Shown piece by piece: positions 31,330-64,000 of a stretch of DNA of 64,000 nucleotides; position 1 is the first letter of the stretch; each line of letters starts with the position of its first letter. The notes below the pieces were generated by a model. That model did no database searches. It saw only the letters and a program-made list of their open reading frames with translations, and was not told the origin of the DNA. The position numbers and the translations under genes were made by a program. Location of the stretch: assembly GCF_009914755.1 (NCBI RefSeq), contig NC_060925.1; one strand, written 5' to 3'. This DNA comes from the human T2T-CHM13v2.0 reference genome, Homo sapiens.

Positions 31330-32360
31330 TAACTCAAAATGAATCATAGACCTACATGCAAAACATAATATTACAAAACTCCTAGATGGTAGCATAAGAG
31401 GAAATTTGATCATCTTGGTTTTGGTGATGACTTTTTAGATGCAACACCAAGGCACAATCCATGAAAGAAATAATTCATAAGCTGGACTTCTTTAAAATTT
31501 AACATTTCTGCTTTGTGAAAGATATTGTCAAGAGAATGAAAAGATAAGCCACAGACTGGGAGAAAATATTTACAAAAGACATATCAGACTTTGTATGTTA
31601 TCCAAAACGTACAAAGAACTCTTAAAACTCAGAGATAAGAACACAAACCAAACAATTAGAAAATGGGCCAAAGACCTTAACAGACATCTCATCAAAGAAG
31701 ATACAGAAGGTGACAAATAAGCATATCAGCTGATGCTCCACATCATATGTCCTCAAGGAAATGCAAATTAAAACAACAATGAGATACCAGTACACACTTA
31801 TGAGAATGCCCAAAATCTGGAACACTGACAGCACCAAATGCTAAAGAAGGATGTGGAGCAACAGGAACTCTCATTCATTGATGGCAGGAACACAAAATAG
31901 TACAGCCACTTGGGAAGACAGTTTGGTGCTTTCTTAAAAAACTAAACATACTCTTACCATAGGATCCAGAAATCACACTCTTCGGGATTTACCCAAAAGA
32001 ACTGAAAGCTTATGTCCACACAAAAACCTGCATACACATGTATATGAACACATTGCACAGTGGTGAAGTCCGGGCTTTTAATGCAGCCATCCTAAATAAC
32101 ACGCATTGTACCCACTAAGAAATGTCTCCTCCTTCACCCACCACCTGACCTCCTGCTCTTCACTGTCTCCAGTGTCTATGATTCTACTCTCTCTCTACCT
32201 CCATCTGTATGCATGATGTACCTCCCACTTACACATGAGGGTGCACAGTGTTTGACTTTCTTTTTCTGAGTAATTTCACTTAAGATAATAGCCTCCAGTT
32301 CCATCCATGTTGCTGCAAAAGTCATCATTTCATTCTTTTTATGGTTGAGTAGTATTCGTC
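31330..32360. mobile_element. L1M fragments (+ strand 31330-32040; - strand 3'UTR piece 32040-32360)
   Basis: gaaatgcaaattaaaacaacaatgagatacc on the + strand. The minus strand translates to FAATWMELEAIILSEITQ. Confidence 0.8.
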
Positions 32361-32428
32361 TGTGTGTGTGTGTATGTGTGCGTTTGTGTGTGTGTTTGTG
32401 TGTGTGTGCGTGTGTGTGTGTGTGTGTA
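32361..32428. repeat. (TG)n microsatellite
   Basis: Imperfect TG run about 1.3 kb upstream of S100A7A. Confidence 0.9.
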
Positions 32429-33715
32429 TCTTTTGCCGCTAAAAGTAATATTGCCGTCATATGGGAAACTGGGAGAGGGAGAAACAGGTCCCCCTGGTTA
32501 CATAAGAACTGACAGAGAAGGAAGTTGAAGAAAGATGATGGGTGGAGAAAATAGGTCCCACCTAGGGAGACATCACATCAGCTCTATGGAGCCCCAGAGT
32601 GCTTAAAGGGCTGGCACTAAATGAACCAGGACCTCTTGCGGCCTACAAGGAACATTGTAAGGGGGTAGCAGAAAAAGTCCATTTCAGTGATTCATCATCT
32701 CCTTTTCCTCACCATGCCCCAGGGACTCCTGTGCCTTCCCAACCCTCTTGCCCCTACCTGGTTCAGGCTTTCCACAGCAGGTTAGGGCACATTATAGCCA
32801 AGGGCACAACTCCCAACTCCTACACAGGCTGTTTTGCATAGGAGGAGGAAAAACACTGAAGACTTTCTGGGAAGTTAGTGCCATGGGGCAGGAAAGAACT
32901 TTTCCCACTCCCTACCTCCAGGCTCATTCCATGGGGCGGGGGGGGCGGGGGTCACTCCACCACTCAACCTAGATAGTGAGGCCCCTGACCCCAGTCCCCC
33001 CACCTAAATCCAGGGCTTCTGTGAGGGGCTGACCAATGGTTAGCAATGAAGTAATCCTGCTTCCCTCCCTGGACTTTGAGTTCCCATAGGGCAGACCCTG
33101 ATGCAACCCAAGACCTATAGCACAGGGGATAAGAGTAAGGATTTGATTCAGGCTTTTCTTTGTTCGTGTGATGATTTGTTGTGTTTACTAGCTGAGTAAA
33201 CTTGGGAACATCTCAACTTCTCCTTTCCTAAAATAGAGATTGCAGCACCTGCTTCTTAAGACTATGAGGGGAGGGTTGAGGAGGATGCAAGAGCAGCAGG
33301 TGTCTTGATGTCTAGACATTAAAACGCTCAGTAAGCGGTGGGGGTCATAGAACAGGCTGTCACAACAAATGTGTGGAAGTACTGGGGGAGGGAATAAACA
33401 AGACCATGCTGCCTTTGGGAGTCTGAAACTCCATTCTCTTTGGGTCCAGAGGCCCAGTGCTCTTTTCTCCCATTTCCTGACCTGTTACTACACATGTACC
33501 GCTGCCTTACCCTCAAATCAAGATTGAGCCAGAGAAGGCCCCAGGTGAGGTCTCTGGGGTGGGGTGGGACCTGGTGACCTGGGACCCTGGCCAGAAATCC
33601 TGAGCACAGCCTCCTGGGTGTGTCCCACACACCTGATATGGGACAAGCCTCCAAGAAACAGATGACAGAGGTGGCCCCAGGCCTCCCAACCCGTGGGAAG
33701 AGCCAGGCTGAGCCT

Positions 33716-33787
33716 TATAAAGGACTGCTCTTTGTCCAAACACACACATCTCACTCATCCTTCTACTCGTGACACTTCCCAGTTCTG
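33716..33787 (+). promoter_or_regulatory. S100A7A: S100A7A TATA box (33716-33721) and non-coding exon 1 (ends at 33787)
   Basis: TATAAA followed by donor CTG|GTAAGT. The arrangement is mirrored in S100A7L2 at 57160-57232. Confidence 0.9.
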
Positions 33788-35307
33788 GTAAGTCTCACCT
33801 GCCTCTTTGCATTTTCTAGAAGTGCCCAGTGCCCAGCCTGCCATGCTGCCTGTAGGAAGGGAAAGGGCTGTGGACAAAGTCTCAGAAGCCTGGGTCTAGG
33901 CCAGCTCTGCCATTAGCTGGGCTGTGTGACCTTCACTTGACCCCAAAAGCCCACGTCTGTACAACCAGGTGGCTGAACCAGACCTGTCCATTGCTCCTTT
34001 GGGATCTCCTGAGACAACTCCTGTGGAAATGTCCCCAGTGGGACCTGAGCACAGGACCCTCCCTTTCCTTCCTGTCTTCTTCCTCCCTGGATTCATTCTC
34101 CTTTTGGGATCCCAGTTGCTGAATCCCCTCCCCAGCTCTGCCCCCACAGAGGGAGGAGGGATAAGGATCCCCTGTGAATGCTTTGGAGGCTCTCCAAACC
34201 CCCAGGCCTTGGACCTGTAAATTCTCAGTCAATCTCTGGGCACAGGGCTTGGCCTCTGGCCTTGGCCTTGGCCTCAGATTCAGAAAGCTTTGAGTGGCTT
34301 CTCTTAGTCAGTTGCTGGCACGGAGCTTTCTCCTGCGTTGAGAGGTGTTGGGGGTTTATTGTCAGATGCCCACATGCGTTAGCCAAGGTCCTTTTCTGGT
34401 TCTTTGGAAAGTGTAGAAATGAGAGCTGCACTGTCTTATTTTTCAGGCTTGGGGTGCAGGGCAGCCCAGGCTGGCTACTGGCTGGAAGATCTGCTTTGGA
34501 AAGTCAGACATTTTTATTTAAACAGGGTCAACCCTTGGTGATTCAGAGGGTGCAGATATTTCCCAAGAGCAGACATGAAGCGACTCCCACCTCACTCCCA
34601 CCCCATCCAGCAGCTTAAGAACCAGGGAGTTATTTCTGTTCCTTGTAACAGAGGCAATTCTTGTTTCTCATTCCCAAGGGAATGTAGGAAGGGCCCCCTG
34701 TCCTCGGGAGAGGGCTGTGTTTCCTGCTCACACTCATGTCCACGCTCACATGTGCACCTGGAGCCTGCACACACCGTGTCATGCAGGGCTTGCACTTGAG
34801 TCAAGGTGGGGCCCACGGTGTCTGGTTCCTGAAGCAGCCGAGGAGGGTCAGACACCAGATCACCAAGGCCATTGTCCTGCCCCCGTGACTCTCACCCCGA
34901 CTGTGAAGCTGGAGGAGATGGATTTGGTGCTGTTTCAAGAGTGGGGTCCGCCATGTGCTGGTTGAGGCTGGGGGGTCCCAGCTTAGTTCTTCTATGTGTT
35001 GCTGGCCTCCGACTCTCCCTGCTTCTCCTTCTCTGAAGCACTGTCCACAGCTGGACTTCTGCCATCCACCTGCATCTCTTCTTGGCCCTGGCCAGGATGG
35101 GCCGGGTCTCAGACTTGGTCCTACCCTCTCATTTTTGAACAACTTATCCCATCACATTTAAAAAAAATCAAGTTCCTTCTGCTCCATCTTAGGGCTGTTT
35201 TTACTCTGTCCTCAGCCCTCCTTCTAACACCCCCACATAGAGACCTTAATTCAAACTAAGGTAAGAAATGATTGTCTTTATTTCCTGAAGGCTTTTTGAA
35301 AGCAAAG

Positions 35308-36534
35308 ATGAGCAACACTCAAGCTGAGAGGTCCATAATAGGCATGATCGACATGTTTCACAAATACACCGGACGTGATGGCAAGATTGAGAAGCCAAGC
35401 CTGCTGACGATGATGAAGGAGAACTTCCCCAATTTCCTCAGTGCCTGTGTGAGTTGGGGTCTAGCTTCTCAATGTTGGTTGGACCCTGGCATGGCTGAGG
35501 ATACATTTTGCTATGTGGCCTTGGACAGGTCACCCTCATCCTCTGATTAAAAAGTTTCCCATTTGCAAATAGGGCTTTATTGCTTGGATCATATGTGAAT
35601 CTAAGGATGGTAGGCGAAAAAGTATGAAAATGGGAAAGAGTTATACAGATATAAAGGAGGTTATTAGATGGTCAGCAAAGTGTGCAGCTTGAGGACAGTG
35701 CACAGTCCCCTCCCAGCGCTCACTGACCCTCTCTCTGTGAGACTGAAACTCACATGCTCAGGTCCTGCTTCCCAAAGGCCCCACATCAACATCCCTGAGA
35801 TTACTGGGAAAGCACTAGAAGTTCCATTGCTAGTAGAAATCAATAGCCCTCTTTGCAATAAAGAAAACTCATTGGCAAATCTGAAAAAACCTGTGGGCTA
35901 CTAGGTACCAAAGGGTCTAGATGACCAAGAGTAGGGAACCCAGAAGATGAGTTTGGTGGAAAAGGAGAAGAAAGGAGAGGAGGTCAGAGAAAGAAGAGAA
36001 CAAAGCATGAGGGCCAATTTTGAGGCCCTGGGGTAGAACTAAGGTAGGCAGTGCCCTTAAATGCTGGGAACAGGCAAGATTGAGGCTGGGGCAGGGGACT
36101 GCTCTCCCCAAGGTCACTTAACAGAGTGCCTCGGGACAGGACCTGCCTCCCATCCTGAGGTGTGAGACAAAAAGTCTCCTTAGAGAACTCCAGGGATAAC
36201 ACTCACGTCCTCACCCCAACTTCACCCACTCACCCTGTGCTCTCAGCCCCACGACCATGCCTGTGCAGATCTAGGTACTTGTCTGTATCTCTGCCTCCTC
36301 CTCTCCCCTCCCAGCCCAAAACTTGTTTGTGATTGAATTTTTCTATTTTGTATGTTTTTCTCTTCACAGGACAAAAAGGGCATACATTACCTCGCCACTG
36401 TCTTTGAGAAAAAGGACAAGAATGAGGATAAGAAGATTGATTTTTCTGAGTTTCTGTCCTTGCTGGGAGACATAGCCGCAGACTACCACAAGCAGAGCCA
36501 TGGAGCGGCGCCCTGTTCTGGGGGAAGCCAGTGA
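35308..36534 (+). CDS. S100A7A: S100 calcium-binding protein A7A (koebnerisin, hS100A15), 101 aa; join(35308..35448, 36370..36534)
   Basis: [47 protein letters not shown] + [54 protein letters not shown]. The GRDG and GIHYLATVF segments distinguish it from S100A7. The intron is canonical GT-AG. Confidence 0.98.
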
Positions 36535-39500
36535 TCCAGCCCCACCAAGGGGCCTCCAGAGACCCCAGGAACAATAAGTGTCTCCTCCCACCAGACACTT
36601 GCCTTATTTCTTCTTCTCTTTGGTGACCTACATTGTCAAAACTACCAATTCCAGGTTAACTTTGTTGGAGAATTTCCCCCACCCCCATCCAGTGGGTCAC
36701 CCAGGAGTAATGTCCCTCCAGCAACGTTCCCCCTATGGCCTCCAGCAGAGCTGATCTGCCTCTCACACAGGTCCTGGTGTCTGCCTCTGCACCGTTCCCT
36801 AAATGCAGCCACCTTGGCAGGTTCCAGGTGGAAGTTGGTAGAAGGCCCCTGCCAGGTCACAGCAATGCTCTCCTTGTCAAGGCATGGACCAGGGTCATTC
36901 AGACACATTCAGATACTGCACTGAGAAGGAGCTGGCATCTCTCAGTGTGCTCCTGCCCTCCCACTCCTGCCCCAGCTGTTCTCCAGGGCTTGGGGAAACA
37001 GAAACCACTCACATAGGGATTCCTGGATGGCTTCAGGTTCAGCGCCCTTGGGGCTATGAATGGGAGGCTCAGCAGTGCCCTGAGGATGGGCTTCCTTGTC
37101 CTGTGGCCTCTGCTCCAGGGGCAGTGTCCTTTCCCTGTGCTGTGTGCTTGTGTGCATGTGCCTATGTGGGTGACCCTGTGGAAGTGAGAAGGAGTCACTG
37201 TGATGCTTAGCTGTCCTAAATGATGGTTTGCTCAATGCCAGGACTGGGTTTCTGGTGATGAATGAATATTCCAGATTTTGAGGAGCTCTAAGTGGTCCAG
37301 GAGTCCAAGTAAGCAGTCTGGCTGGAATAAGGCAGCATCACGGAAATTCTGTAAGGACTGACACAGAGAGCTCATGCTGACTGTGATGAGAAATTGCAGC
37401 ACCTCTATCTCGCAGGTAATGGAGTAGTTTGTTATTGGTAGTCTACTCCAGGCCAGGCAGTGTGTTATGGGCTGAGGATGCAGAAACAGGCAGGACACAG
37501 TGCTGTCCTAGCAGTGCACTGGCGGGTCTCTCCATGCAGGCCACAACACAGGGTCAGTGTTCACCTGGTGTCACTTCCAGGCAATGTTCTGTGCAGCCGC
37601 TCTTAGTATTCTTCCTTGAGGCTCACATCATGTGTCCCTATCACTCTTACTACTCTGGTCAGTCTCCAGCTAACCTCTCAATCAGGCAAACATTCTTCTT
37701 GGAGGAATCAGGCAAACATCTCAAAAATTCTCTTTCCATCCTACCAGCAGCAGTGTGTAAGATGGGCTATTTGTTCTTTGGAATGACTGCTCCACTCCAC
37801 ACTCACACCTCTATTCACAGACCAGCATCTCCTCTCCTTATCAGGAACATTCCTTCCTGAACATATTCTGCACCTCGTCAGCCTTCAGGACTGATCTGCC
37901 ATTTTCACCTCTAAATCCCCATGTCTGACCATTAGTTTTCTTCTCTTTCCTTCTCTCCCTTTCTCATTCTCATTCCACCTGTTCTTGGAACTCACGGAGA
38001 CCTACAGTCCCTGGGCTTTCATTTTCTCCTCCCAGCCCCCTGCTGCCTTCTCTATGCAGCCTGCCCTCCATCATCCACCCCAGAATTGCTCTCTTTCCTC
38101 TCTTAGCTCTGTTGCCCACTTTCCTTGGGCCATACCTTCCCTGCAGATCTCCAGCCCAGAACCATCTTCCCCTGTTGTCCTCCTCTCTCCTCCACCGGGA
38201 CTGCTGGTCACTGCTTAGAACCGTCATGCCAGGGTCCCAAAAGTGTGGGTGCCTGACTTCCTCTCTGTGCAGCACTCTCTGAATCCCTCCTATTCACCTT
38301 GCTGCTGTTATTCCCCGAATGCGCAACATACCCCCCATCAATATATCTCAGTATTTCATGTCTCAATACCAATCTTTTAAACTACTGCCTCTACCAGAAA
38401 TGTCTTTTAATACTTCTTCTGTCTCATTAACATTACATTTCAAGGCTGAGCTTTAATGTCAGTGTCTCTTAGACATTCAGAGGGTGAACCACCATCCCTT
38501 CACCCCAAAGAAATGATCTCTGCTTCATTTGTGCCTCCCTCACCATGACCCCACTCTTACCATAGTGGCTACATTACTTCAGATTCCCCTAATGTCTTTC
38601 CAGCCAGACTTGGAATCATGGAGGGAAAACATTGTTACCTCGGATCTCCTGGTTACCCAGCACATAGTAGTACTGGATTCCAGCTCATAATAAGTACTCT
38701 ATATCATTTTTCAATATAAAATGTATTTGTGCAAATTCTAGTCAATACTACTTTATGTAAACAGCAGTGTAAAATCCAAAAACTTCCAGTCCTGGAGGCA
38801 GGTTGTGCAGCTTAGGGGAGGACCCCAGAATCTGGACCCCAGAGTCTGGAAGCAGGCCAGAAAGGATAAGGCAAATGACTGAACAGTTCCCTCAGGACTC
38901 ACGTACTGATCTCCCAAAAGAAGAGAGGGTCTCCCTGGGGTGGGGTTGCTGGACCTTCAATCCATCGCTACAGTCCAGAAGGCAATTGGCCACTCCTAAT
39001 GTGGGCCTGCCCTCCCTTTATTTTTCCAGTTCTTATTTCACCTGATAATATTCCGTCCAATTGGCAATGGCACATAAAAATTAGGATGGAGTGTGTGGAC
39101 AAATACTTCTTCATCTTCTTGTCTAGGTTTTAGAAATCACCTTCTCAAGGGAGCCTTGTCTAATGTTCCTGAGACTATTTCACACTCTCCATGCTTATGT
39201 CAATGCAGGACTCATCACATCTATTCGGATATTCTGTTTACACACCCATGTCATCCCAGAGAGGTGATCACAGGGCAGGGACACATGTGTGGCATACAGT
39301 TCCTAGTTAAGATCCCAAATCCTGAGATATTGCTGATTTGCTATGGCAGGTCGTCAAGAGAACTGTGTCATTCCAAACTCACCAAGGTGGCTTATAGAAC
39401 AGAAGCAGATGGATATGAAGAGGAGAGGGGACCAGACCATCTCCGCAACCACAGCCCAGAGCTCCAGTCACCAGATAGAAAATTGATTTGATTTCATCCA

Positions 39501-40447
39501 ATATTCCTTCGAAAGAGTGTCAAGGAATAGGGTGGGGCAATGTGTCATTCTGCATTGGAAGGAGGACATTTTAGAGCAAGGCCTAAGGGCACAGGTATTA
39601 GTGTCATATTGATCAGAATTCAACCTTTGTTCTAACACATACTAGAGCAAGAATTTACTTGATTTGGAATAATTAATAGCTACTGGACATTATATTGGTA
39701 CTAAAGAGAAAGAATACTTGACAGCTCTATGCCCACACTCACATTACAGCTGATGTGAAAGAGATTCTGGAAATCCAAATGTTCCCCAGAAATTCTGATA
39801 TCAAAACATTCCAATAACTTTTTTTTTTCAGGCGCAGTCTCACTCTGTCGCCCGGGCTGGAGTGCTGTGAGCTGTCCGTGGTGCTGAATTCACTGTGACG
39901 TCACTCCTGTCTCTCTTTGCTTTCTTCTGACTGACATTTATTCAGCCTTCTCTACAGGAATCTCTTATGTTCCCCCACATGCAGGTGGTTTTTCAGTAGG
40001 CTCCTGAAGAGTGATCTCAACTTTCCAGGAAGAAAAGAGGGCAAAGGGAACAATGTGAAAAGAAGCAGAAAATCATAAAAGACCATGTGTTTGATAAACA
40101 ACCAGATTGTTTCTGGTTCCCTGCCACTATAAAAACACCATGAGAGCATACTCATACATGTTCCCTTATAAATCTGCGAGGTAGTTTCTTTGGTATTCTT
40201 GCCCAGGAAATGGGTTGATTCATCACAGATTTTATATATATACTTTTTTTTAACTAAGTGTGAGATAATATCTTATTGTTTTTGTAACTTGCATTTTACA
40301 AGAGTTCTGACCAGCACCAGATAAGCTTCAGTGCTCTCCTTTCTTTGGCCTTAATATTATTGGATTAAAGAATTACTGCCTCTCACTAGGAGCATCATTT
40401 ATTTACCATTATTTTCAATTTCATATTAAAACTCAATTTCTAGTAGA
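36535..40447 (+). other. S100A7A: S100A7A long 3'UTR (proximal signal is AATAAG at 36573-36578; candidate distal ATTAAA at 40425-40430)
   Basis: The degenerate proximal hexamer is seen directly. The distal ATTAAA is followed by a U/GU-rich tract, which agrees with the known long transcript form. The end position is inferred. Confidence 0.65.
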
Positions 40448-41859
40448 GTCTTTGGTTTCCTTGGTTTATTTTTCTATTTAAATATTTTTTATCTTTTATT
40501 ATTCTTTACCATGTTTTGAAGTAAATTAAAGCAGTTAATATGAGCCAATCAACTTCTTTGGGAATTACATAGAAGAGCATGAGAGCCTTTATTTCAGGCA
40601 ATGCAACAACGTAACTTTAAAGAAATTTAAAGTGGAACTCCAACTCATATCCACATTGCTCTATGCACAGTTAGCATTATTACATCCGAGCTACATTTAC
40701 TTCATAATCTGCTGCCACAGTATTTGTCTACCCACTTCTCCACGAATACCTTCCCTAACCTCATATTGCCTCCCACTCCTTAACACCACAAACAATACTA
40801 TGGGGAACATCATTATATATATTTCCTTATGTATCTGTGTGAATATTTTTTGGAATATATATATATATATTCCAAAAAGTAGACTACCTGGGACACAGAC
40901 TCTATGTGCTCTTGGCTTGACTATTGTTTTCTTACCAACAGTACCAAGAGTTCCTATAGCTCAGCATTACTGCCAATATGTCTGCTTCTGGTTATGGAAT
41001 ACTTTCATAGCAGACTAATTATCCTAACAAAACATAGAAAACGTGGATGAAAATCAGAAAATTTTCTGCTTCAAAGCATCAAAAAGCTACCAAGTAACCA
41101 GGACTTGAAGGCTCTGGTTATCCAAGAGAAAGAAGACTCGATCAATGCACTCAAAATTAAAGCTGCTTCTCTTCCTGAGGAATTTATCATTTCTCAAGTA
41201 GTTTGTACAAAGAAGTTAAAAACCAAACAGAAAGTAACTTCTAAGAGACAAAGAAGATTATTTGCGACTTTAATAGTCATTCAGGGCTGGTGAGATTAAA
41301 ATCAGTGTTGAGGACTTCCAACACAGCCAGAACTTGAAAAGCCAAGAATTTAGATAAAAGAGAAGCAACAAATGGTGAGTTGATTACTCTAATTTTCTCC
41401 CTTTGAGGCATGCGTCTTTTCACAAGTTGCACAGGACAAGAGGTACAGACCATCAGAAAATCTTTGTTAAAAACCTAAATAGCTAGTAAGAGCCTTTAGG
41501 AGATAAACATCAAAGCTCAGAGGATTTCCAAGGTAGAGGTACCCTTCTAAACATTCCAGGATTTCAGTTAGAACACCTAAAGTGCTACTCCTAGGAATAA
41601 GTATATGGATCAGAAATATAAATCCTAAAATTTAGTTTTGAATCAACTTTATCCTAGATTGGATTTAAATGATCTGCTACTTGAATTCCTTTCCAGAAGC
41701 TAAAGAAAATTCTCTAGAGGGAGAGAAAATCATCCATATCCTGAAATAAAAAAAATTCATTTTTAATGTTCAGCATTCAAAAAAGCCAAGTACACCAACA
41801 GAGAAGATAAAAATAGGAAATGGAAATAAGAGAAGACAATAGAAGATGTAAACAAACCG

Positions 41860-42290
41860 AGAGATGATAAGCCAGGCACAGAAAGATAAATATCACATGT
41901 TTTCACTCATCTGTGGGAGCTAAAAAAAAAAAAAGTTGGTCTCATGGAGGTAGGGAGAATGATGGTTACTAGAGGCTGGGAAAGGTGAGTGGGTGGGGTG
42001 AAGGGAGATTGGCTAAACAAATAGAAACATCTAGCTATATAGAAGGAATAAGATCTAATGTTTTATGGCAGAATAGGGCAACTATAGTTAACAAGAGTGT
42101 ATTGTATATTTCAAAATAGCTAGAAGAGAAGATTTCATATGTTCTCACCACATAGAAATGATAAATACTTGAGGTGATTGATGCCCTAAATACCATGACT
42201 TGATCATTATACATTCTGTGCATGTAACAAAATGTCACCCATGTACCCCATAAGTATGTAACAATATTAGACATCCATAAAAATTTTTTA
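41860..42290 (+). mobile_element. L1MA-type 3'UTR fragment
   Basis: ataagccaggcacagaaagataaatatcacatgtt...atttcaaaatagctagaagaga. Confidence 0.8.
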
Positions 42291-43175
42291 AATACTGTAA
42301 ATGGAAGCAGAGAATTGAGAAGATTGCAGAGGAGAGTGAAGTCAAAATAATTATTTAAGGTCAGACAAATAACAGTGTATTTGTATAGAATGAAAAGACC
42401 AGAAAACAGAAAAAAAATGATGGTGCATAAGAAAAAGAGGAGAATTTCTGTAGAGGGTGTTTGAAAAAAGCAAGGAGGATGGGATGTAGTGAAAGAGGAT
42501 GGATAGACATCTGCTGGGAACATAAAAAGTTCATAGTAGTGGGGGGAAGGCAGAGTGTATGGCCACTGATTCTGATAAGAGGGTAGATGGGGTAATTGAA
42601 GTATGCAAATACTCTCTTATTTGTATTGAATGTGCAGTTGGATTAGTGGTCATGAATTTGAAGTGTGACCAGTCAACAAGGTAAGCACATTTTTCTCCAG
42701 ACTTGTTTATCTGCAGAAGTGTAGACAGAGTTGGATTTACCCAGTGTTGGCAATGATCATTCATAGCTGATACAGAAGAAAAAGACACCCAGACATGTAC
42801 TCTTGATAGTAGACAACCCCACATTTGAAGCAATCTGCTTTAAAAAACCTGAACCCTGAAGATGCTTAAGGCTCTAGATCTACCGAGTTACAAAGGGAAG
42901 AGAGAGGCTGAGTAATCTGTTCATTGACACCACATGGATGCAATCAGGAACTCCACACTGTAGGAAATTCTACAGGACAAATGACCCAGTTTCTACAACA
43001 ACAACATCAAAATGAAAGGAGAAAAAGAAGAAATTGAGAGTGAAGCTGCACATTTAAAAATCTTGGCTGAGTGCAGTGTCTCACGCCTGTAATCCCAGCA
43101 CTTTGGGAGACTGAGGCGGGTGGATCAAGTGGGTAATCCTAATTAAATATTTGTTAAATCAAAAATAATAATTCC

Positions 43176-43470
43176 TGGCCCTGCACAGTGGTTCACACCT
43201 CTAATCCTAGCACTTTGGGAGGCCAAGGTAGAGGATCCCTTCAGCCCAGCAGCTTGAGACTAACCAGGGCAACATAGTGAGACCTCCATCTCTACAAAAA
43301 ATAAAAAATTAGCCAGGCATGGTGGCATGTGCCTGGAATCCCAGTTACATAAGAGGCTGAATCAGAAGGATTACTTGAGCTAAGAAGGTCGAGGCTGCAG
43401 TGAGCCATGACCCTCAGCCTGCTGCACTCCAGCCTCAGCAACAGAGCATGACCCTGTCTCAAATAATAAT
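43176..43470 (+). mobile_element. Alu (AluJ-like), preceded by an Alu stub at about 43065-43130
   Basis: Dimeric Alu consensus. Confidence 0.88.
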
Positions 43471-43621
43471 AATCATTCCGAAATAAGGGACATAATTTTT
43501 AAGGAGAGTTAAAAGGCTGAAAAAATAATAGCATACAAGCCAGAATGGGAGTCTCTGAATTTAAAGTGAATTATTTACATTGTTTAGGAGGAGAATAGAG
43601 ATATTGATTAACTCTAGTCTA

Positions 43622-44074
<453 letters not shown>

Positions 44075-44153
44075 TCAAGAATCAACTGTGTTGCCAACAT
44101 GCATATTTAAAGAGAAAAAGGAAAAGAACCCAGCAACCAGAGCAGGGGACCAG

Positions 44154-46890
44154 TTTACTGGCTCTTGGTGTCTGCTGAGCCAGGGCCTGGGTGGACAGCC
44201 CATGGGCTGGGCTGGGCTGAGATGGGGCTGGGTCATCCATAACCTTTAGAACAGGGCTTCTGGCCATGGGACTGATGGTGTAATTCCTTAGCAACTGCAG
44301 CAACACTGGAGACAAACTCAGAAAAATTGATCTTCTCCTCATGATTCTTGTCCTTCTTAAACAACTTTTCCAAGAAATCTGGGCTCTTTTTTTTTTTCCT
44401 GTGGGGAGAAGATATCAAACAAAAGGAAGGTTATAACCTGGGGCTGGACTGGGATTGTGAGAAGGAGATGGCAGAAGCTAAGGGGAAATATGTAGCGGGT
44501 GAGGTGGGGGTTTTAGGAGGGTGGGGTTGGGACAGCCGTAATGGATGGGATGGGGAGCCCTAACCCTGGCGTTTTAATTGGTGACTCTTGGTTCAAATGA
44601 GAGCATGCATAGCAGATCCAAAAATTCTGAGGCCAGGTCTGTCTGTGCCCCTTGGAATGCCTGATATTCATTCTACATGGGCAAACACCCTTTGGACTCC
44701 AGTCTCAAAATTCCCTCCACTCCTCATCATCCCATCAAAATACACCAATTCTGAATCCCCTCCTTGTCGGAGCTCACTCTCTGTGATTCAATCTGTTGCA
44801 TTATTTGTGCCAGTGAGGTCAGTGGGTGCTAATGGTTTAATGGTGAAGTTAGATGTTATAGTGAGTGGAAATCAAAAACTCTCCAGGGTTTTAGGGCTGC
44901 CTCATTTCACTTGGCATTATGATTCTGTGGTGTCACTACTGCTCCCAGGGGTACATGAAAAGAAGCTTCCAGAAGGAGCAGACGAACCCAGAGTTGAATC
45001 TAAAGGGGGAAATTTTTTTACAGACAGAAGAGAGATACTTTAAGCCAGGAGACCTTCTCTCGACCCACAAGTCACATAGCCTGCTGACTGTCTAATAACA
45101 ATCGTTAACACCACTATCCCTCTTCCCATCTTACAAAACATCGCACATGTTTTACCTCATTTAAATGTTCATAACAATCCCAGGAAATAAGTGACATTGT
45201 CCCCATTTTTACATCTAAGGTAACTAACACTCCCTGAGTTGGTGTTTACGTATTTGTAACAATGAAATAAGTAAACAGCAGGGGCTGTGCAGGAAATCGG
45301 TTCTTCTCACCCCATCCTGGACTCTGTCTACTGCCCACCTTCCATTCAGGAGTAGAGGTGCAGGTGGCTGGGGGGAGGTGTGAGATGCTCGCCAGCCTGC
45401 CACATCGGTGCCTCTCCATGTGCTGGTTCTCAGGCCAGTCAGGGCCATGGGTGCCGTGCACTCCTGCCCCACTCCCACCCAGCCGCTGGGTCCCTGCTCA
45501 CAAGGCTGATAGGAAGGTGGGGGAAATGCATGACGTTGGACATCCAGATCTGCCCATGGCATCTGAATCTCGGGTGTATTTGTGACATAGGTTGAGCAAG
45601 CCCTTCAGCTGCTCCTCAGCTCCCATGTCCAGTAAGCTGCAGGAAAGGGCGCCGGTCGCCTGGCTTGCTTTCCAACGTCTAAGACTGTGGGGAACAGGGA
45701 TGAGAGGAGACAGGATAGGCAGGGAATGGAGTGAGGGCCGGTGCTGCAGGGAAGGTGAGAGGCAGCCCTGAGAAGGAGCAAAAGGAATCTGATAATCCTT
45801 CAGTCCAGGTGAAATCCAGAGGAGGGAATAAATGTTTGAGGAGAGGGAGGGGAAGTCATGGAAATTGTAAGACCCAGGGTGGGATGTGTGGGCAGAGGGA
45901 GGAGGGGGTCGGCTGCAGGAGTGGAAGAATGAGGTGGTAGCGTCTGAGGGATCCTGAATTTAAGGTGCTGGGGAAAGTAGGAGTCCGCCTAGGGATCTAT
46001 TACTGCTGAAATCAGCAGTGAGACCTTCCAGCAAAACACTGACATGAAGAAAGGCACGATCACCCCCTCGCTTTCCCAGAGCTCTGGGATCTCAGATAAA
46101 ATATAAAGAACCCAGGTGGTGCCCCGTCTGTGTGGAGCTACTGACAGGTCAGCAATCAACAGCCCAGGGGAGGCCTGAGCGACCCCACTCCATGTGTCTC
46201 CTGGACCTCTGGGCTCAAGTCCTCTTACGATGCTCCAGGGGGCACTGGAGGGCTCTGCCAATCCCTGCACATTTGTACCGTCCCTGTGCTCCCAACCCTG
46301 GGCCCAGGGCTGGGAGCAAGGGGGAATTAAGGGAACGGTACAAACATGAAGGATTCACTCTGGACCTCTCCAGTGCCTCAGAGCATCTTGAAGAGACCTG
46401 AGCCCAGGAAGCTGCGAAATGAACAAACCACTCAGTAGAAAGAAGGACTGCAGCAGGTAGAGGCGGTGCTGGGAATCCTGGACTTGGCTCTGGCCTCATG
46501 GGTCTACAGAGACATTCTCTGCAGTAGCTCTTCTGTGAAGCTCCTTGGTGTCACAAGACCACCAAAAGTCAGAACAGAAAGGATATAGATTATCTAGTCC
46601 AGCCCCTCACTGCCCAAAAGAAGATGCTGAGGCCTGGAGGGAGAGGATGAATGACTTCCCTGCAGGTTGCACAGGCCAGTCAGGGACAAGCTGTAACTTG
46701 AACCCAGGCATCCTGACTCCCAGCCCAGGGCCTTCCTCCTGACATAAATAGGCAGCAAGCAGGATGGAGCATTGTGCCTTAAACATAGAAGCACAAGGGC
46801 ACACGGGGACTCACCAGACCCTGCAGAGAAGGCCTAGAGGAGGGTAAATGGGAGAAGGGTGTCAGATGGAGAGCAGTGCCTTTGATGGTG
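44154..46890 (-). pseudogene. S100A7P1: S100A7-like three-exon locus (S100A7P1-type). The predicted spliced ORF join(complement 45502..45626, 44233..44398) is open, 96 aa
   Basis: An exon 1 homologue has donor CTG|GTGAGT at 46814 and a degenerate TATA (CATCAAAG, about 46880-46887). Exon 2 has acceptor cctgcag|C at 45636, ATG at 45626 and donor TT|GTGAGC at 45501. Exon 3 has acceptor cccacag|G at 44398, with AGTAAA at 44154-44159. Confidence 0.85.
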
Positions 46891-47229
46891 CTCAGATTTA
46901 GGCTGGGACCAGGACTGGGTGCCTGGGGCTTATTCCATCAGCTGCCTCAACAGGATGCTGGTCCGGGTGGGAACTCAGCCGACACTGCCCTGGGACTCAG
47001 TTGTGCCTGCCCAGCGAGGCCCCAGCAGAGTCCTCTTGCCTTTCTAAGTCCTATGGGGCTGGAACGGTGGGTGATGACAGAGGGAATGTGAGAGTGCTGC
47101 TGTGCCCCCAGGACATAGGGCATTTGGGGATTTGCAGGTGGAATCAGAGTCCCTGATTATGTATCCAATGAATCATTTGAGGAGCTTTCATTACCTGTCA
47201 GTAATGTAAACGCAGCTGTCATTTGTGAC

Positions 47230-47440
47230 AGGTTACCACATGCCAGGCAGTCTGCTAAGAGCTTTGCATGCATGGTCTCATTTAATTATCAGGAGAATCC
47301 TGTGTGATGGGTATTATTATCTCAGTTTACAGACGTGAACAGAGAGTTTAGCTAGATTTGCCAAGAGTACACCCTTAGAAAGTGGCAAAGCCAGGATTTG
47401 AACCCAAGTCCTACTGACTCCGAAGCCCAGCTTCTAGCCA
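47230..47440. mobile_element. MIR
   Basis: atgccaggca.tctgctaagagcttt...ggcaaagccaggatttgaacccaagtc. Confidence 0.7.
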
Positions 47441-48274
47441 TCTGTGGAAATCCAGGGTCTGTGCTGTCAGTCTTGGCTGAGCATGGAGTTACCCTGCCCC
47501 GCAGGAGCCACTGTCCAGTGCAGTGCACAGTAGAGGAACCAGGGCTCTGACCTGGACATGGCCCAGGGACCTTTGTCCAGGCTGTTCTGTGAGCTCTAGG
47601 CCCCAGATGGCAGGCAGGAAGCCTCTGTGTTCCCCAGAGCACACTCCTGCTGGCCACAGTGGCCTCCAGGTCACTCCAGAAGGGAAAGCTGCTGACTAAG
47701 ACCCTGTGCTTTCTAAGGAAAGCCACTTTTATTTGAGATGTCTTGCTGATCCTCCCAGGGCACCCAGGAAGACAACTGAGATTTTTATCTCATCTTACAG
47801 CTGAAGGAAAAAGGGTCACTGGCAGGTGGCTTGCACAAAGTCACAGAGCTGGGGAGGGGCAAACATGGGACCATGTCACAGAACTCTGTCTCCAATGAGC
47901 ACTCTTGCTGCATGATCTCAGAGCCCCACCAGGTTCCTGGACACACCAAGACAGCCATGGTCCATCCGCCACAGAAACCTCAGGGGCAGGGACAAGTCCT
48001 GCCAACTCACTGGGCTTACCATTGGCCTAGTATGTAATGCAAATTATTCCCCACTGGGAGAGGGGAGCCCGGATTAGTCAGTGGACATCCACTCAGGTAC
48101 GCTGGTGCTCCTCAAGGCTGCTTCTCATGTCTCCTTTGAATAGGGCCTGTTCATGGAGCCCTTCATATTCCCCCTACAGTGCTCCTCATGCTCCCAGGGT
48201 CTGTCAGGAGCACCAGTGGCCTTCCTGACATCAGGACTCCCTGGCTCTGCTATTCTCTCGATTGTCCCTCATCA

Positions 48275-54283: not shown

Positions 54284-55555
54284 TCACTGGCTTCCCCCGG
54301 AACAGGGTGCCACTCCATGCATTATCTTGTGGTGGTCTATGGTTATATCCCCCAGCAAGGAAAGAAACTCAGAATAATTAACCTTCTTATCCTTATTATC
54401 ATCTTTTTTCTCAAGGGCATTGGACAAGTAATCCATGTCGCTTTTTTCCTGCATGGAGAGAAACACGCAAGAAAGAAAAATGATATTTGAATTGGAAAAA
54501 GAGGAAAGAGGTATCCTGTGGTGTGAACATGACAAGTGGGTAAGTGGGACAGGAGTGGGTGGAAGAGAGAGAGCAGCATTGCTGGGTTGTTCCTGAGGAG
54601 TTCTCCATTGAGTGACTCCATGAGGAAAACACAGAGATTGGTGTCAGGCTCCGCCAGGAACCACACTGGTAAGGAGTGAGGGGCCTTCATTGGCCACAGA
54701 CCCACAGACCCACCCACCTACCCACCTGTACAGGCGCTGTCTCCTTTCTCCCCAGGGGCCCAGCACAGGCTGACCGCCTTCCTTCTCTTACATGTTGACT
54801 CTTCTCCCATTCCATTTCTTTCCCATTCAAACTGTTAAGTGCCAGGTTCCCTTTCTTTAGGACCCAGTGCTCTATTCTCTCTTGTTATATTTTACTAATA
54901 AGAGTGATGCATTCTAACAGTGAAATAAAACCCAGTATATGAATAAGCTCTGCCAAATATAAAGGGTGGTGCTCATGTTATCAATATTCTGATTTCCATT
55001 GAGTTCCATCTTGACAAGCCTCCACTTGAACCTAGAGGAGTGACTCTCACAGAGGGACAAGGTTACGTTGGGCAGAAGAAACAAATGGCCAGAGCGTGTG
55101 TGTAACCTCTCCAGGTAACGTGGCAGGGGGCCCAGTGGCAGGACAGGAGCCCAGCATGTCTGATTCTCAGTTCCAGTCTCCATCTCTTGAATGGTTAGTC
55201 TCTCCACGGGGCTGGTCCTGCCTAAGGCTGGGACAGATGGATCAGTGAGGCATACCAGGCTCAGAATTACCCAATAAAAATAGTGAATTCAGCTCCCAGA
55301 GATGAGTCCTCAGACATGTCACAATGCACAGGACCTGTCCAAGAATCACTACTCCATTGCCCCGCACAAATATAAAAGCTCTCCCAGCCAAGGGCGGGCA
55401 GAGTCCCCACTCACACAGCCACTGAGGAAGTTGGGGAAGTTCTCCTTCATCAAGTTCACCAGACCTGGCATGTCCATCCTACCATCATCTCCACTGTATT
55501 GGCGAAACATCGCGACTATGTCCAACATGACTTTCTCACCTAGAGGGATATTCAT
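54284..55555 (-). CDS. S100A7L2: S100A7-like 2, 101 aa; join(complement 55415..55555, 54284..54448)
   Basis: [47 protein letters not shown] + [54 protein letters not shown]. Exon sizes (141 and 165 nt) equal those of S100A7A, and the intron is GT-AG. Confidence 0.95.

Positions 55556-61885: not shown

Positions 61886-64000
<2,115 letters not shown>

What the first reader, a model, noticed from the sequence alone, without database searches (positions are those of the whole stretch)
44233..45626. The S100A7P1-type 'pseudogene' splices into an intact 96-aa S100 ORF: possible hidden or resurrected psoriasin paralogue
Seen: the ATG at 45626 is in strong context (GACATGG). Exon 2 gives 125 coding nt ending TT|GTGAGC (phase 2). 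Exon 3 starts G followed by A11, so the junction reads TTG AAA AAA AAA AAG AGC and stays open to TGA at 44233. The product is MGAEEQLKGLLNLCHKYTRDSDAMGRSGCPTSCISPTFLSALKKKKSPDFLEKLFKKDKNHEEKINFSEFVSSVAAVAKELHHQSHGQKPCSKGYG. An exon-1 donor, both acceptors and an AGTAAA signal are present. The sister copy has ACG, TAA and TAG instead. Caveats: the TATA is degenerate and helix II is scrambled (CPTSCIS, 2 codons short). The sister copy shares that lesion, so the open frame may be a secondary, chance restoration.
Basis: partly seen in the sequence, partly recalled or inferred. Interest (0 to 1): 0.8.

Follow-up and report, generated by a model that had tools for sequence, protein, structure and literature searches.

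The report
Reopened reading frame in S100A7P1 pseudogene
The human pseudogene S100A7P1 really can be spliced on paper into a 96-residue open reading frame, but that frame is already in the databases, arose late in a long-dead gene, and is predicted not to fold like an S100 protein.

Summary
ATG 45626, exon 2 (125 nt), donor TT|GTGAGC and exon 3 (G+A11, 166 nt) give a 96-aa frame ending at TGA 44233. It is not hidden: it equals UniProt Q5M770, 'S100 calcium binding protein A7-like 3'.

S100A7P1 is not a recent psoriasin copy. It belongs to an old sister clade of S100A7 that is still intact in lemur, tree shrew, rabbit, squirrel, beaver, shrews and rhinoceros.

Compared with those orthologues, P1, its sister P2 and macaque share four lesions. 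These are loss of the ancestral Met, a 2-codon loss in helix II, a +4 nt insertion at the start of exon 3, and a 1-codon loss.

Two human-P1-only changes reopened the frame:
- ACG>ATG at a CpG on the ancestral Thr codon.
- A 1-nt deletion in the last codon of exon 2.

Further evidence against function:
- The TATA box is lost and the poly(A) signal is weakened.
- The exons are no more conserved than the introns.
- AlphaFold2 gives pLDDT 65 with no S100 fold (best TM 0.41). The squirrel orthologue gives pLDDT 82 and TM 0.87 to psoriasin.

Verdict: an ordinary unprocessed pseudogene with a chance-reopened ORF. Transcription and ape or population states were not testable.

The parts
46879..46886 (-). 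Site homologous to the TATA box of S100A7, S100A7A and S100A7L2. It now reads ATCAAAGG, so the TATA is lost.
   Evidence: Local alignment, four-way alignment and coordinates.
46815..46859 (-). Relic of non-coding exon 1. The 5' end is approximate and is inferred from the S100A7A start site. The donor is CTG|GTGAGT at 46815/46814. There is no ATG in it.
45637..46814 (-). Intron 1. The homology to P2 starts at 45871, so P2 was duplicated without exon 1 or a promoter.
45502..45636 (-). Exon 2: 10 nt of 5'UTR plus 125 coding nt. Acceptor CCTGCAG|C, donor TT|GTGAGC.
45624..45626 (-). ATG in the context GACATGG. It lies on the ancestral Thr codon (ACG in P2). It is inferred to be a C>T change at a CpG in the human P1 lineage.
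45519..45545 (-). Helix-II region. It reads GCPTSCISP where intact orthologues read GL.KMMKENFP, and it is two codons short. The lesion is shared with P2 and macaque.
45502..45503 (-). TT, the remainder of the conserved Cys codon TGT after a 1-nt deletion found only in human P1. This changes the intron from phase 0 to phase 2 and restores the frame.
44399..45501 (-). Intron 2. A gene-conversion tract with P2 (2-6% divergence) ends near 44721. Beyond that point divergence is 10-18%.
44387..44398 (-). Start of exon 3: G followed by A11. Together with GAGCCCA there are 19 nt before GAT, where the intact EKKSPD reading implies 15 nt. This is a +4 nt insertion shared by P1, P2 and macaque. In a message it would be a poly(A) track.
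44233..44398 (-). Coding part of exon 3 (166 nt), with stop TGA at 44235-44233. Its C-terminal half is still family-like, at 88 bits.
44317..44352 (-). Canonical EF-hand loop, DKNHEEKINFSE. Position 5 is Glu, where 12 of 13 intact proteins and macaque have Asp.
44154..44159 (-). AGTAAA, at the position homologous to the AATAAA of S100A7. It is a weakened poly(A) signal, shared with P2.
62132..63886 (+). Sister copy S100A7P2. It has ACG at the start, TAA in exon 2, an intact TGT, A12 with CCCGAT, TAG in exon 3 and an Alu in the intron. It has no exon 1.

Best explanation
S100A7P1 is an unprocessed, three-exon pseudogene. It is the catarrhine relic of an old S100A7-family paralogue that is still intact in many other mammals.

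The gene was already disabled before the inverted duplication that produced the pairs S100A7A/P1 and S100A7/P2. By then it had lost its initiator Met, lost two codons in helix II, and gained a +4 nt insertion at the start of exon 3.

Later, and only in the human P1 lineage, two small neutral mutations reopened a 96-codon frame:
- A CpG transition, ACG>ATG, on the old Thr codon.
- A 1-nt deletion in the last codon of exon 2, next to a slippage-prone A11 run.

The predicted product lacks the N-terminal S100 EF-hand and most likely does not fold as an S100 protein.

Shown: the lesions, their distribution among the copies, the phylogeny and the fold predictions. Inferred: the order and neutrality of the events, and the lack of expression.
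For: 1. The ORF equals a deposited protein.

2. Phylogeny. P1 and the macaque model nest in a clade (UFboot 98, SH-aLRT 96; 15 rows) with 'protein S100-A7' of Sciurus, Marmota, Castor, Dipodomys, Prolemur, Tupaia, Oryctolagus, Diceros, Suncus and Sorex. This clade is sister to the clade holding human S100A7, S100A7A and S100A7L2 (85/96). The Homo+Macaca stem is 0.30 changes per site, against 0.14 for the lemur tip.

3. Shared lesions against the intact consensus MSNTEAEK...KMMKENFPTFLSAC|EKKSPDFLEKFFKK.DKN.

4. ATG against ACG in P2 and Thr in macaque. TGT is kept in P2, S100A7A and S100A7L2 but is TT in P1.

5. The duplication edge lies inside intron 1. The unit is 83-92% identical, but exon 2 plus the adjoining intron is 96% identical, which indicates later gene conversion.

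6. No exon-specific conservation between P1 and P2. Exon 2 differs by 4.4%, its flanking introns by 3.7-6.0%. Exon 3 differs by 13.9%, its flanks by 10.5% and 15.8%. Polarised exon-3 changes are 6 on the P1 branch (4 non-synonymous, 2 synonymous) and 9 on the P2 branch, with 3 unresolved; the difference is not significant.

7. Of 23 columns that are identical in at least 12 of 13 intact proteins, P1 differs at 8: L32C, K37I, E38S, N39del, F40del, C47L, D67E and L76V.

8. Leave-one-out family HMM. The N-half scores 29.0 bits, against 60.1-101.6 in 19 of 19 intact proteins. The C-half scores 88.1 bits, within the intact range of 65-108.

9. AlphaFold2 with the same 23-row alignment. P1 has mean pLDDT 64.9 and pTM 0.46, with no proper helix II. 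The squirrel orthologue has 82.3 and 0.67.

10. Foldseek against the PDB. P1 has 0 matches at E<=0.001; its top-ranked match is S100A12 2wc8 (TMq 0.39, rmsd 6.4 A) and the best S100A12 chains score TM about 0.4. The squirrel model has 77 such matches and matches psoriasin 1psr at TM 0.87, rmsd 1.6 A.

11. The TATA is lost and AATAAA has become AGTAAA.

12. An A11 track in a coding region is of the kind reported to cut protein output by 40-60% in human cells (PMC7295572, introduction and results passages).

13. The reading frame that a -1 deletion would switch into is open from 45604 to the end of exon 2. About 100 positions, plus the A run, could therefore restore the frame. The neutral simulation gave 0.9-2.0%.
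Against: - The frame is intact over 96 codons, with a strong Kozak context and all four splice sites. No upstream ATG occurs in the putative 5' leader.
- The C-terminal half is as family-like as in intact proteins. It keeps the four residues that align with the zinc ligands of psoriasin. The ligand identities are recalled; the alignment is.
- The P1 branch shows fewer and milder exon-3 changes than P2 (6 against 9), a trend in the direction of constraint, though not significant.
- A 96-aa open model also exists for macaque, and it appears to keep the frame by a different -1 shift. Its PPTCRPV matches the other frame of the human DNA. If real, that is a second independent restoration.
- Pfam S_100 also fails to hit the intact beaver protein, so that test alone is a weak discriminator.
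- AlphaFold2 confidence is not a measurement of folding.
- Transcription and translation were not tested at all.
Confidence: 0.85

Rival explanations
1. Resurrected gene. The reopened frame is transcribed in epithelia and translated into a hominid-specific S100-like protein. This protein would use its preserved C-terminal EF-hand, helix IV and His/Asp metal site, perhaps as a partner or modifier of psoriasin.
For: - Complete ORF, strong Kozak context, intact splice sites and no upstream ATG.
- The C-half scores 88 bits, like intact proteins.
- The same ORF is found in two independent human sequences, T2T-CHM13 and the source of Q5M770.
- Fewer derived changes in exon 3 than in P2.
Against: - The TATA is lost and the poly(A) signal weakened.
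- RefSeq gives no transcript (hub annotation).
- The four papers that name S100A7P1 use it only in gene lists or in naming the family. I read passages in two of them.
- No paper text contains three tryptic peptides of the product.
- Helix II is destroyed and no S100 fold is predicted.
- EF-loop position 5 has changed from Asp to Glu in the human lineage.
- An A11 track lies in the coding sequence.
- The exons are not conserved above the introns.
Confidence: 0.06
2. The frame has been kept open by selection since the catarrhine ancestor. Human and macaque would each have compensated the +4 insertion independently because an open frame mattered.
For: The macaque model EGK_01323 is 96 aa and open. 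Its last six exon-2 residues match the shifted frame of the human DNA, which implies a different -1 event.
Against: - The macaque model starts with Thr and is labelled partial, so it has no initiator there.
- It is a homology-built gene model, and I could not see its DNA. The frame jump may be an artefact of the model.
- Conserved column L76 is Val in human and Phe in macaque, and D67 is changed in human only.
- The shifted frame is open over about 100 nt, so restoration is easy by chance.
Confidence: 0.03
3. The locus acts only as RNA or DNA, as a transcribed non-coding pseudogene or a regulatory relic within the epidermal differentiation complex. The ORF would be irrelevant.
For: Splice sites and a poly(A) signal variant survive. 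An exon-1 and promoter relic is still alignable.
Against: - No transcript in the RefSeq table.
- No Rfam family in 43500-47500.
- No conservation of exons above introns.
- Nothing here tests expression.
Confidence: 0.08

Closest known systems
S100A7P1 / S100A7-like 3 (UniProt Q5M770), the annotated human pseudogene itself
   Same: The coordinates match the RefSeq pseudogene span. The spliced product is letter for letter the deposited 96-aa protein.
   Different: Nothing differs. The added points are the history of the frame and the fold prediction.
'Protein S100-A7' of non-anthropoid mammals: Sciurus P0129, Marmota P0008, Castor P0007, Dipodomys P0130, Prolemur P0131, Tupaia P0132, Oryctolagus P0134, Sorex P0133, Suncus P0009, Diceros P0135
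   Same: Same clade. Identity is 62-63% overall to Sciurus, Tupaia and Prolemur, and 72-73% in the C-half. Shared motifs are YTRDSDAM, PTFLSA, SPDFLEK, NHDEKINFSEF and SSVA.VA.
   Different: Those proteins keep MSNT at the N-terminus, KMMKENF in helix II, Cys at the exon junction and a phase-0 EKK start of exon 3. The squirrel protein models as psoriasin at TM 0.87. P1 does none of this.
Human psoriasin S100A7 and S100A7A (koebnerisin), PDB 1psr and 4aqi
   Same: Same three-exon plan, same intron positions, same gene cluster. Best PDB sequence match: 66.6 bits, E 2e-17. The promoter and exon-1 relic is alignable.
   Different: Only 44-48% identity. DNA similarity is detectable over only 51 nt. 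It belongs to the sister clade rather than being a recent copy. The TATA, Met, helix II and Cys47 are lost.
S100A7P2, the sister pseudogene in this window
   Same: Same lineage and the same shared lesions. Identity is 96% over exon 2 plus the adjoining intron, and 88% over exon 3.
   Different: P2 lacks exon 1, keeps ACG and TGT, and has TAA, TAG, A12 with CCCGAT and an Alu insertion.

Membership tests
S100 protein family (functional member) | N-terminal S100-type EF-hand: helix I, loop and helix II (Pfam S_100, PF01023) | tested here: not met
   There is no S_100 hit for exon 2 alone or for the whole product. S100A7A exon 2 scores 40.7 bits. The leave-one-out family HMM gives 29.0 bits for the N-half, against 60.1 or more in 19 of 19 intact proteins. 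The near-invariant L32 and K37-F40 are changed or deleted. Caveat: intact Castor P0007 also misses Pfam S_100.
S100 protein family (functional member) | C-terminal canonical 12-residue EF-hand loop with its acidic ligands | tested here: inconclusive
   The loop is DKNHEEKINFSE. Positions 1, 3 and 12 are kept. Position 5 is Glu, where 12 of 13 intact proteins have Asp. EF-hand_7 scores 21.1 bits, below the cut-off of 30, but S100A7A exon 3 is also below the cut-off.
S100 protein family (functional member) | Compact four-helix S100 fold | tested here: not met
   AlphaFold2 gives pLDDT 64.9 and pTM 0.46. Foldseek finds 0 matches at E<=0.001, and the best S100A12 matches have TM about 0.4. The control orthologue, run with the same alignment, gives pLDDT 82.3 and TM 0.87 to 1psr. 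This is a prediction only.
S100 protein family (functional member) | Three-exon gene in the 1q21 cluster, with the coding split after the hinge Cys codon | tested here: met
   The exon-1 relic, both introns and all splice sites are at homologous places. The intron phase has changed from 0 to 2.
Protein-coding gene under selection | Ancestral initiation codon retained | tested here: not met
   The MSN(T) start of the intact orthologues is absent. The present ATG aligns to their Thr codon, to ACG in P2 and to Thr in macaque.
Protein-coding gene under selection | Exons more conserved than introns, with dN/dS below 1 | tested here: inconclusive
   Exon divergence between P1 and P2 is not below that of the flanks. 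The P1 branch has 4 non-synonymous and 2 synonymous changes in exon 3, which is too few to test.
Protein-coding gene under selection | Transcript, ribosome or peptide evidence | not testable with these tools
   No expression data are available here. RefSeq lists no exons or transcript. Full-text searches found only gene lists and no peptide strings.
Unprocessed (duplicated) pseudogene | Introns retained, homologous to intact genes, and carrying disabling lesions relative to them | tested here: met
   The introns and a promoter relic are retained. Loss of the Met, the +4 nt insertion and the helix-II deletion are shared with P2 and macaque.

The most novel reading that the evidence does not exclude
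A gene that had been dead for tens of millions of years regained a start codon and its reading frame in the hominid lineage. It is now expressed in stressed epithelia as a short S100-derived protein. Its preserved C-terminal EF-hand, helix IV and His/Asp metal site would let it bind metal or pair with psoriasin or koebnerisin. That would make it a natural case of pseudogene resurrection within an innate-immunity cluster.
Probability: 0.05. Interest if true: 0.6.

Novelty: already known. Interest (0 to 1): 0.2.

Why it matters
As it stands, little changes. The pseudogene label is right, and the 96-aa frame is an old database entry.

Two modest points are worth keeping.

1. S100A7P1 and S100A7P2 are not decayed copies of psoriasin. 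They are the remains of a second, old S100A7-like lineage that lemurs, tree shrews, rabbits, several rodents, shrews and a rhinoceros still carry intact under the name 'S100-A7'. This affects orthology statements about psoriasin across mammals. My full-text searches found no description of it. Kulski et al. 2003 could not be read, so I cannot say what that paper states about these two copies.

2. The locus is a clear worked example of how a CpG change and an indel beside a homopolymer can reopen a frame by chance. It is a caution for ORF-based rescue of pseudogenes.

Tried and rejected
- Homodimer prediction. Complex prediction with two copies of the 96-aa product returned 'no answer' (score 0.02, mark 0.32). 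The partner's fold was uncertain, and my alignment was not used. I do not count it for or against anything.
- Kulski et al. 2003, the original description of S100A7a-e, is not held. [quoted passage not shown]
- Pfam S_100 as a yes/no test turned out weak. Intact Castor P0007 and P0006 also miss it, and P0005 passes by only 0.4 bits. I replaced it with a leave-one-out family HMM.
- A relative-rate comparison of the P1 and P2 branches in exon 3 (6 against 9 changes) is not significant.
- Indel parsimony between P1 and P2 alone could not tell whether their ancestor was in frame. It was settled only by the intact orthologues, whose EKKSPD reading shows that CCCAGAT is ancestral and the +4 insertion is shared.
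- I considered that the ATG might be the ancestral start, with a 9-nt in-frame deletion after it. I rejected this because intact orthologues read N-T-E-A-E where P2 reads D-T-G-A-E and P1 reads D-M-G-A-E.
- I considered S100A15A as the parent and rejected it. PDB 8s9w matches exon 3 only at E 0.017, against 4.6e-11 for S100A7.
- Rfam found nothing in 43500-47500. The tandem-repeat scan found only an A-rich array at 44025-44059, downstream of the gene.
Full report
**1. Observation**

On the minus strand, ATG lies at 45626-45624 in the context GACATGG. The frame runs 125 nt to ...GCCTT and is followed by GTGAGC. The next acceptor is ...CCCCACAG|G. Exon 3 begins with G at 44398 and eleven A at 44397-44387, and is open for 166 nt to TGA at 44235-44233.

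The other statements also hold:
- The exon-2 acceptor is CCTGCAG|C at 45637/45636. The exon-2 donor matches the working genes from +1 to +5, GTGAG.
- AGTAAA at 44159-44154 sits where S100A7 has AATAAA.
- A local alignment of the S100A7A promoter and exon 1 with the P1 upstream DNA scores 19. In 100 shuffles the mean is 12.0, the s.d. 1.4 and the maximum 16.
- In the four-way alignment, S100A7A, S100A7 and S100A7L2 all read TATAAA where P1 reads ATCAAA.
- The sister copy P2 has ACG, TAA and TAG.

**2. The frame is not hidden**

A search of the large protein collection with the exon-3 peptide returned a 96-aa human entry: Q5M770_HUMAN, 'S100 calcium binding protein A7-like 3'. It is identical to the in-silico spliced product.

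The name S100A7P1 occurs in four papers of the library. In the two whose passages I read, it appears only in a gene list (PMC7574992) and in a sentence naming the family (PMC2933911). The other two I saw only in the search listing. No paper contains S100A7L3, S100A7L4 or Q5M770, nor three tryptic peptides of the product. PMC6518696 cites Kulski et al. [quoted passage not shown] The 2003 paper itself is not held.

**3. What the locus is**

P1 is far from psoriasin at the DNA level. S100A7A exons with their flanks find only 51 nt of P1, at 82% identity. They find S100A7L2 at 78-86% and S100A7 at 95-98%. The T2T genome holds only two copies of this type, P1 and P2.

The stretch 32000-45871, holding S100A7A on the plus strand and P1 on the minus strand, is an inverted duplicate of 79547-61887, which holds S100A7 and P2. 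Identity along the unit is 83-92%, but it rises to 96% over P1 44715-45871. The homology ends 235 nt upstream of exon 2, so P2 was born without exon 1.

Divergence between P1 and P2, segment by segment:

| Segment | Divergence |
|---|---|
| Intron-1 part | 6.0% |
| Exon 2 | 4.4% |
| Intron 2, 5' part | 3.7% |
| Intron 2, middle | 2.1% |
| Intron 2, 3' part | 10.5% |
| Exon 3 | 13.9% |
| 3' flank | 15.8% |

I read the low-divergence tract as later gene conversion. It ends at the site of the Alu insertion in P2.

Protein searches then found intact relatives. They are named 'protein S100-A7' or are unnamed, and come from Sciurus, Marmota, Castor, Dipodomys, Prolemur, Tupaia, Oryctolagus, Sorex, Suncus and Diceros.

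In a maximum-likelihood tree of 34 rows, these proteins, human P1 and the macaque model form one clade (98/96). It is sister to a clade (85/96) holding human S100A7, S100A7A and S100A7L2, manatee and elephant shrew. A quick tree of 25 rows agrees. The rows were chosen by me from the search lists: long multi-domain and fragmentary hits were left out, and three were trimmed to the S100 part. The root is at the midpoint only.

Because the P clade holds both Euarchontoglires and Laurasiatheria, and human psoriasin lies outside it, I infer that the split is at least as old as their common ancestor.

**4. History of the frame**

The intact consensus reads MSNTEAEK..LFHKYT.DSDAMDKSGL.KMMKENFPTFLSAC, then the exon junction, then EKKSPDFLEKFFKK.DKNHDEKINFSEFLSS. 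Against it:

(a) P1, P2 and macaque lack the Met and the next three residues. tblastn aligns N-T-E-A-E of the orthologues with D-T-G-A-E of P2, and the P1 ATG lies on that Thr codon. ACG>ATG is a C>T change at a CpG.

(b) All three read GCPTSCIS-type sequence, two codons short, where KMMKENF should be.

(c) All three have 19 nt before GAT at the start of exon 3, where the EKKSPD reading implies 15 nt. This is a +4 insertion that shifts the frame. One codon further on is also lost.

(d) P2, S100A7A and S100A7L2 keep GCC TGT|GTGAG, while human P1 reads GCC TT|GTGAG. That single deletion compensates the +4 insertion.

The macaque model keeps the G of TGT. However, its last six exon-2 residues (PPTCRPV) match the other frame of the human DNA (PPSYRPV), which implies a different -1 shift or a jump made by the gene model. 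Its first residue is Thr and it is marked partial.

So the common ancestor of P1 and P2 already lacked a start and was out of frame. The human frame is secondary.

**5. Could chance do this?**

The frame that a -1 deletion switches into is open from 45604 to the end of exon 2 (ORF 45224..45604). About 100 positions, plus the A run, can therefore restore the reading.

I ran a simulation from the inferred earlier state, with 200,000 replicates per setting. The assumed parameters were 2-3% change per site in exon 2, 6-7% in exon 3, tenfold faster CpG transitions, and indels at one tenth of the substitution rate. An ATG appeared in the first 30 nt in 13-18% of replicates. An ORF of at least 85 codons appeared in 0.9-2.0%. 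These rates are my assumptions, so the figure is only an order of magnitude.

**6. Signs of constraint**

There are none that are significant. The exons are not more alike than their flanks.

In 49 aligned exon-3 codons, P1 and P2 differ at 18 sites. Polarised with three outgroups, 9 changes fall on P2: 7 non-synonymous, including the stop, and 2 synonymous. Six fall on P1: 4 non-synonymous and 2 synonymous. Three are unresolved. The trend favours P1 but is far from significant.

The P1-derived changes include Asp>Glu at EF-loop position 5 and Leu>Val at a near-invariant column where macaque has Phe.

**7. The predicted protein**

- Of 23 columns identical in at least 12 of 13 intact proteins, P1 differs at 8, five of them in helix II.
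- In the leave-one-out family HMM, the N-half scores 29.0 bits in human and 20.0 in macaque, against 60.1-101.6 in all 19 intact proteins. The C-half scores 88.1 and 88.0, within the intact range of 65-108.
- Against the PDB, the whole product scores 66.6 bits to psoriasin and the squirrel orthologue 103.3.
- AlphaFold2, using the same 23 sequences in a different order, gives P1 a mean pLDDT of 64.9 and pTM of 0.46, with no proper helix II. The squirrel protein gets 82.3 and 0.67, with the expected helices.
- Foldseek finds no PDB match at E<=0.001 for the P1 model. The top-ranked match is S100A12 2wc8 (TMq 0.39, rmsd 6.4 A), and the best S100A12 chains score TM about 0.4. For the control it finds 77 such matches, led by psoriasin 1psr at TM 0.87 and rmsd 1.6 A.
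- The A11 run would be a coding poly(A) track. Passages of PMC7295572 report that such '12A-1' motifs lower protein output by 40-60% in human genes and cause stalling and frameshifting. They also report that only 77 human genes carry eleven consecutive A in coding sequence.

**8. Verdict**

This is an unprocessed pseudogene of an old S100A7-like lineage. Its reading frame was reopened late by two small mutations.

Three things remain open:
- whether the locus is transcribed;
- whether apes share the ATG and the deletion;
- whether the A run varies among people.

None of these could be examined here. Supplementary tables of expression or proteogenomic papers were not searched and might hold relevant rows.

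Noticed in passing
window 54284-55555 (-), S100A7L2: The hub table lists S100A7L2 as a pseudogene. In this assembly, however, its two coding exons splice on paper into an intact 101-aa frame with a normal S100A7-type sequence. An orthologue-like protein (P0017) exists elsewhere.
   Followed up: partly
P0002 (Cercocebus atys LOC105593541, 272 aa): This gene model has a second S100 unit with an S100A7L2-like N-half and exon-3 start. It then switches to the P-type C-terminus (HDEKISFSEFLSSVAAVAKELHHQ...). That suggests either gene conversion between the two lineages in an Old World monkey or a chimeric model.
   Followed up: no
window 44715-45871 vs 61887-63046; Alu at 63049-63402: There is a gene-conversion tract between P1 and P2, with 2-6% divergence inside it and 10-18% outside. 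Its edge coincides with an Alu insertion in the P2 intron.
   Followed up: partly
window 36529-36645 (+), S100A7A 3' end: Where S100A7 has AATAAA, S100A7A reads AAT-AAG, so the proximal poly(A) signal is lost. This fits the roughly 4-kb last exon that RefSeq gives for S100A7A.
   Followed up: no
P0131 (Prolemur simus, 98 aa): The lemur model lacks the three EKK residues at the exon 2/3 junction (…SAC|SPDFLDK…). The A-rich start of exon 3 may therefore be unstable, or mis-modelled, in other primates too.
   Followed up: no
P0129, P0008, P0007, P0130 (squirrel, marmot, beaver, kangaroo rat): Several rodents carry an intact gene of the P1 type, annotated 'protein S100-A7'. PMC6518696 reports no functional S100A7 in mouse and rat. 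The rodent 'loss' may therefore concern muroids only, and orthology labels mix two lineages.
   Followed up: partly
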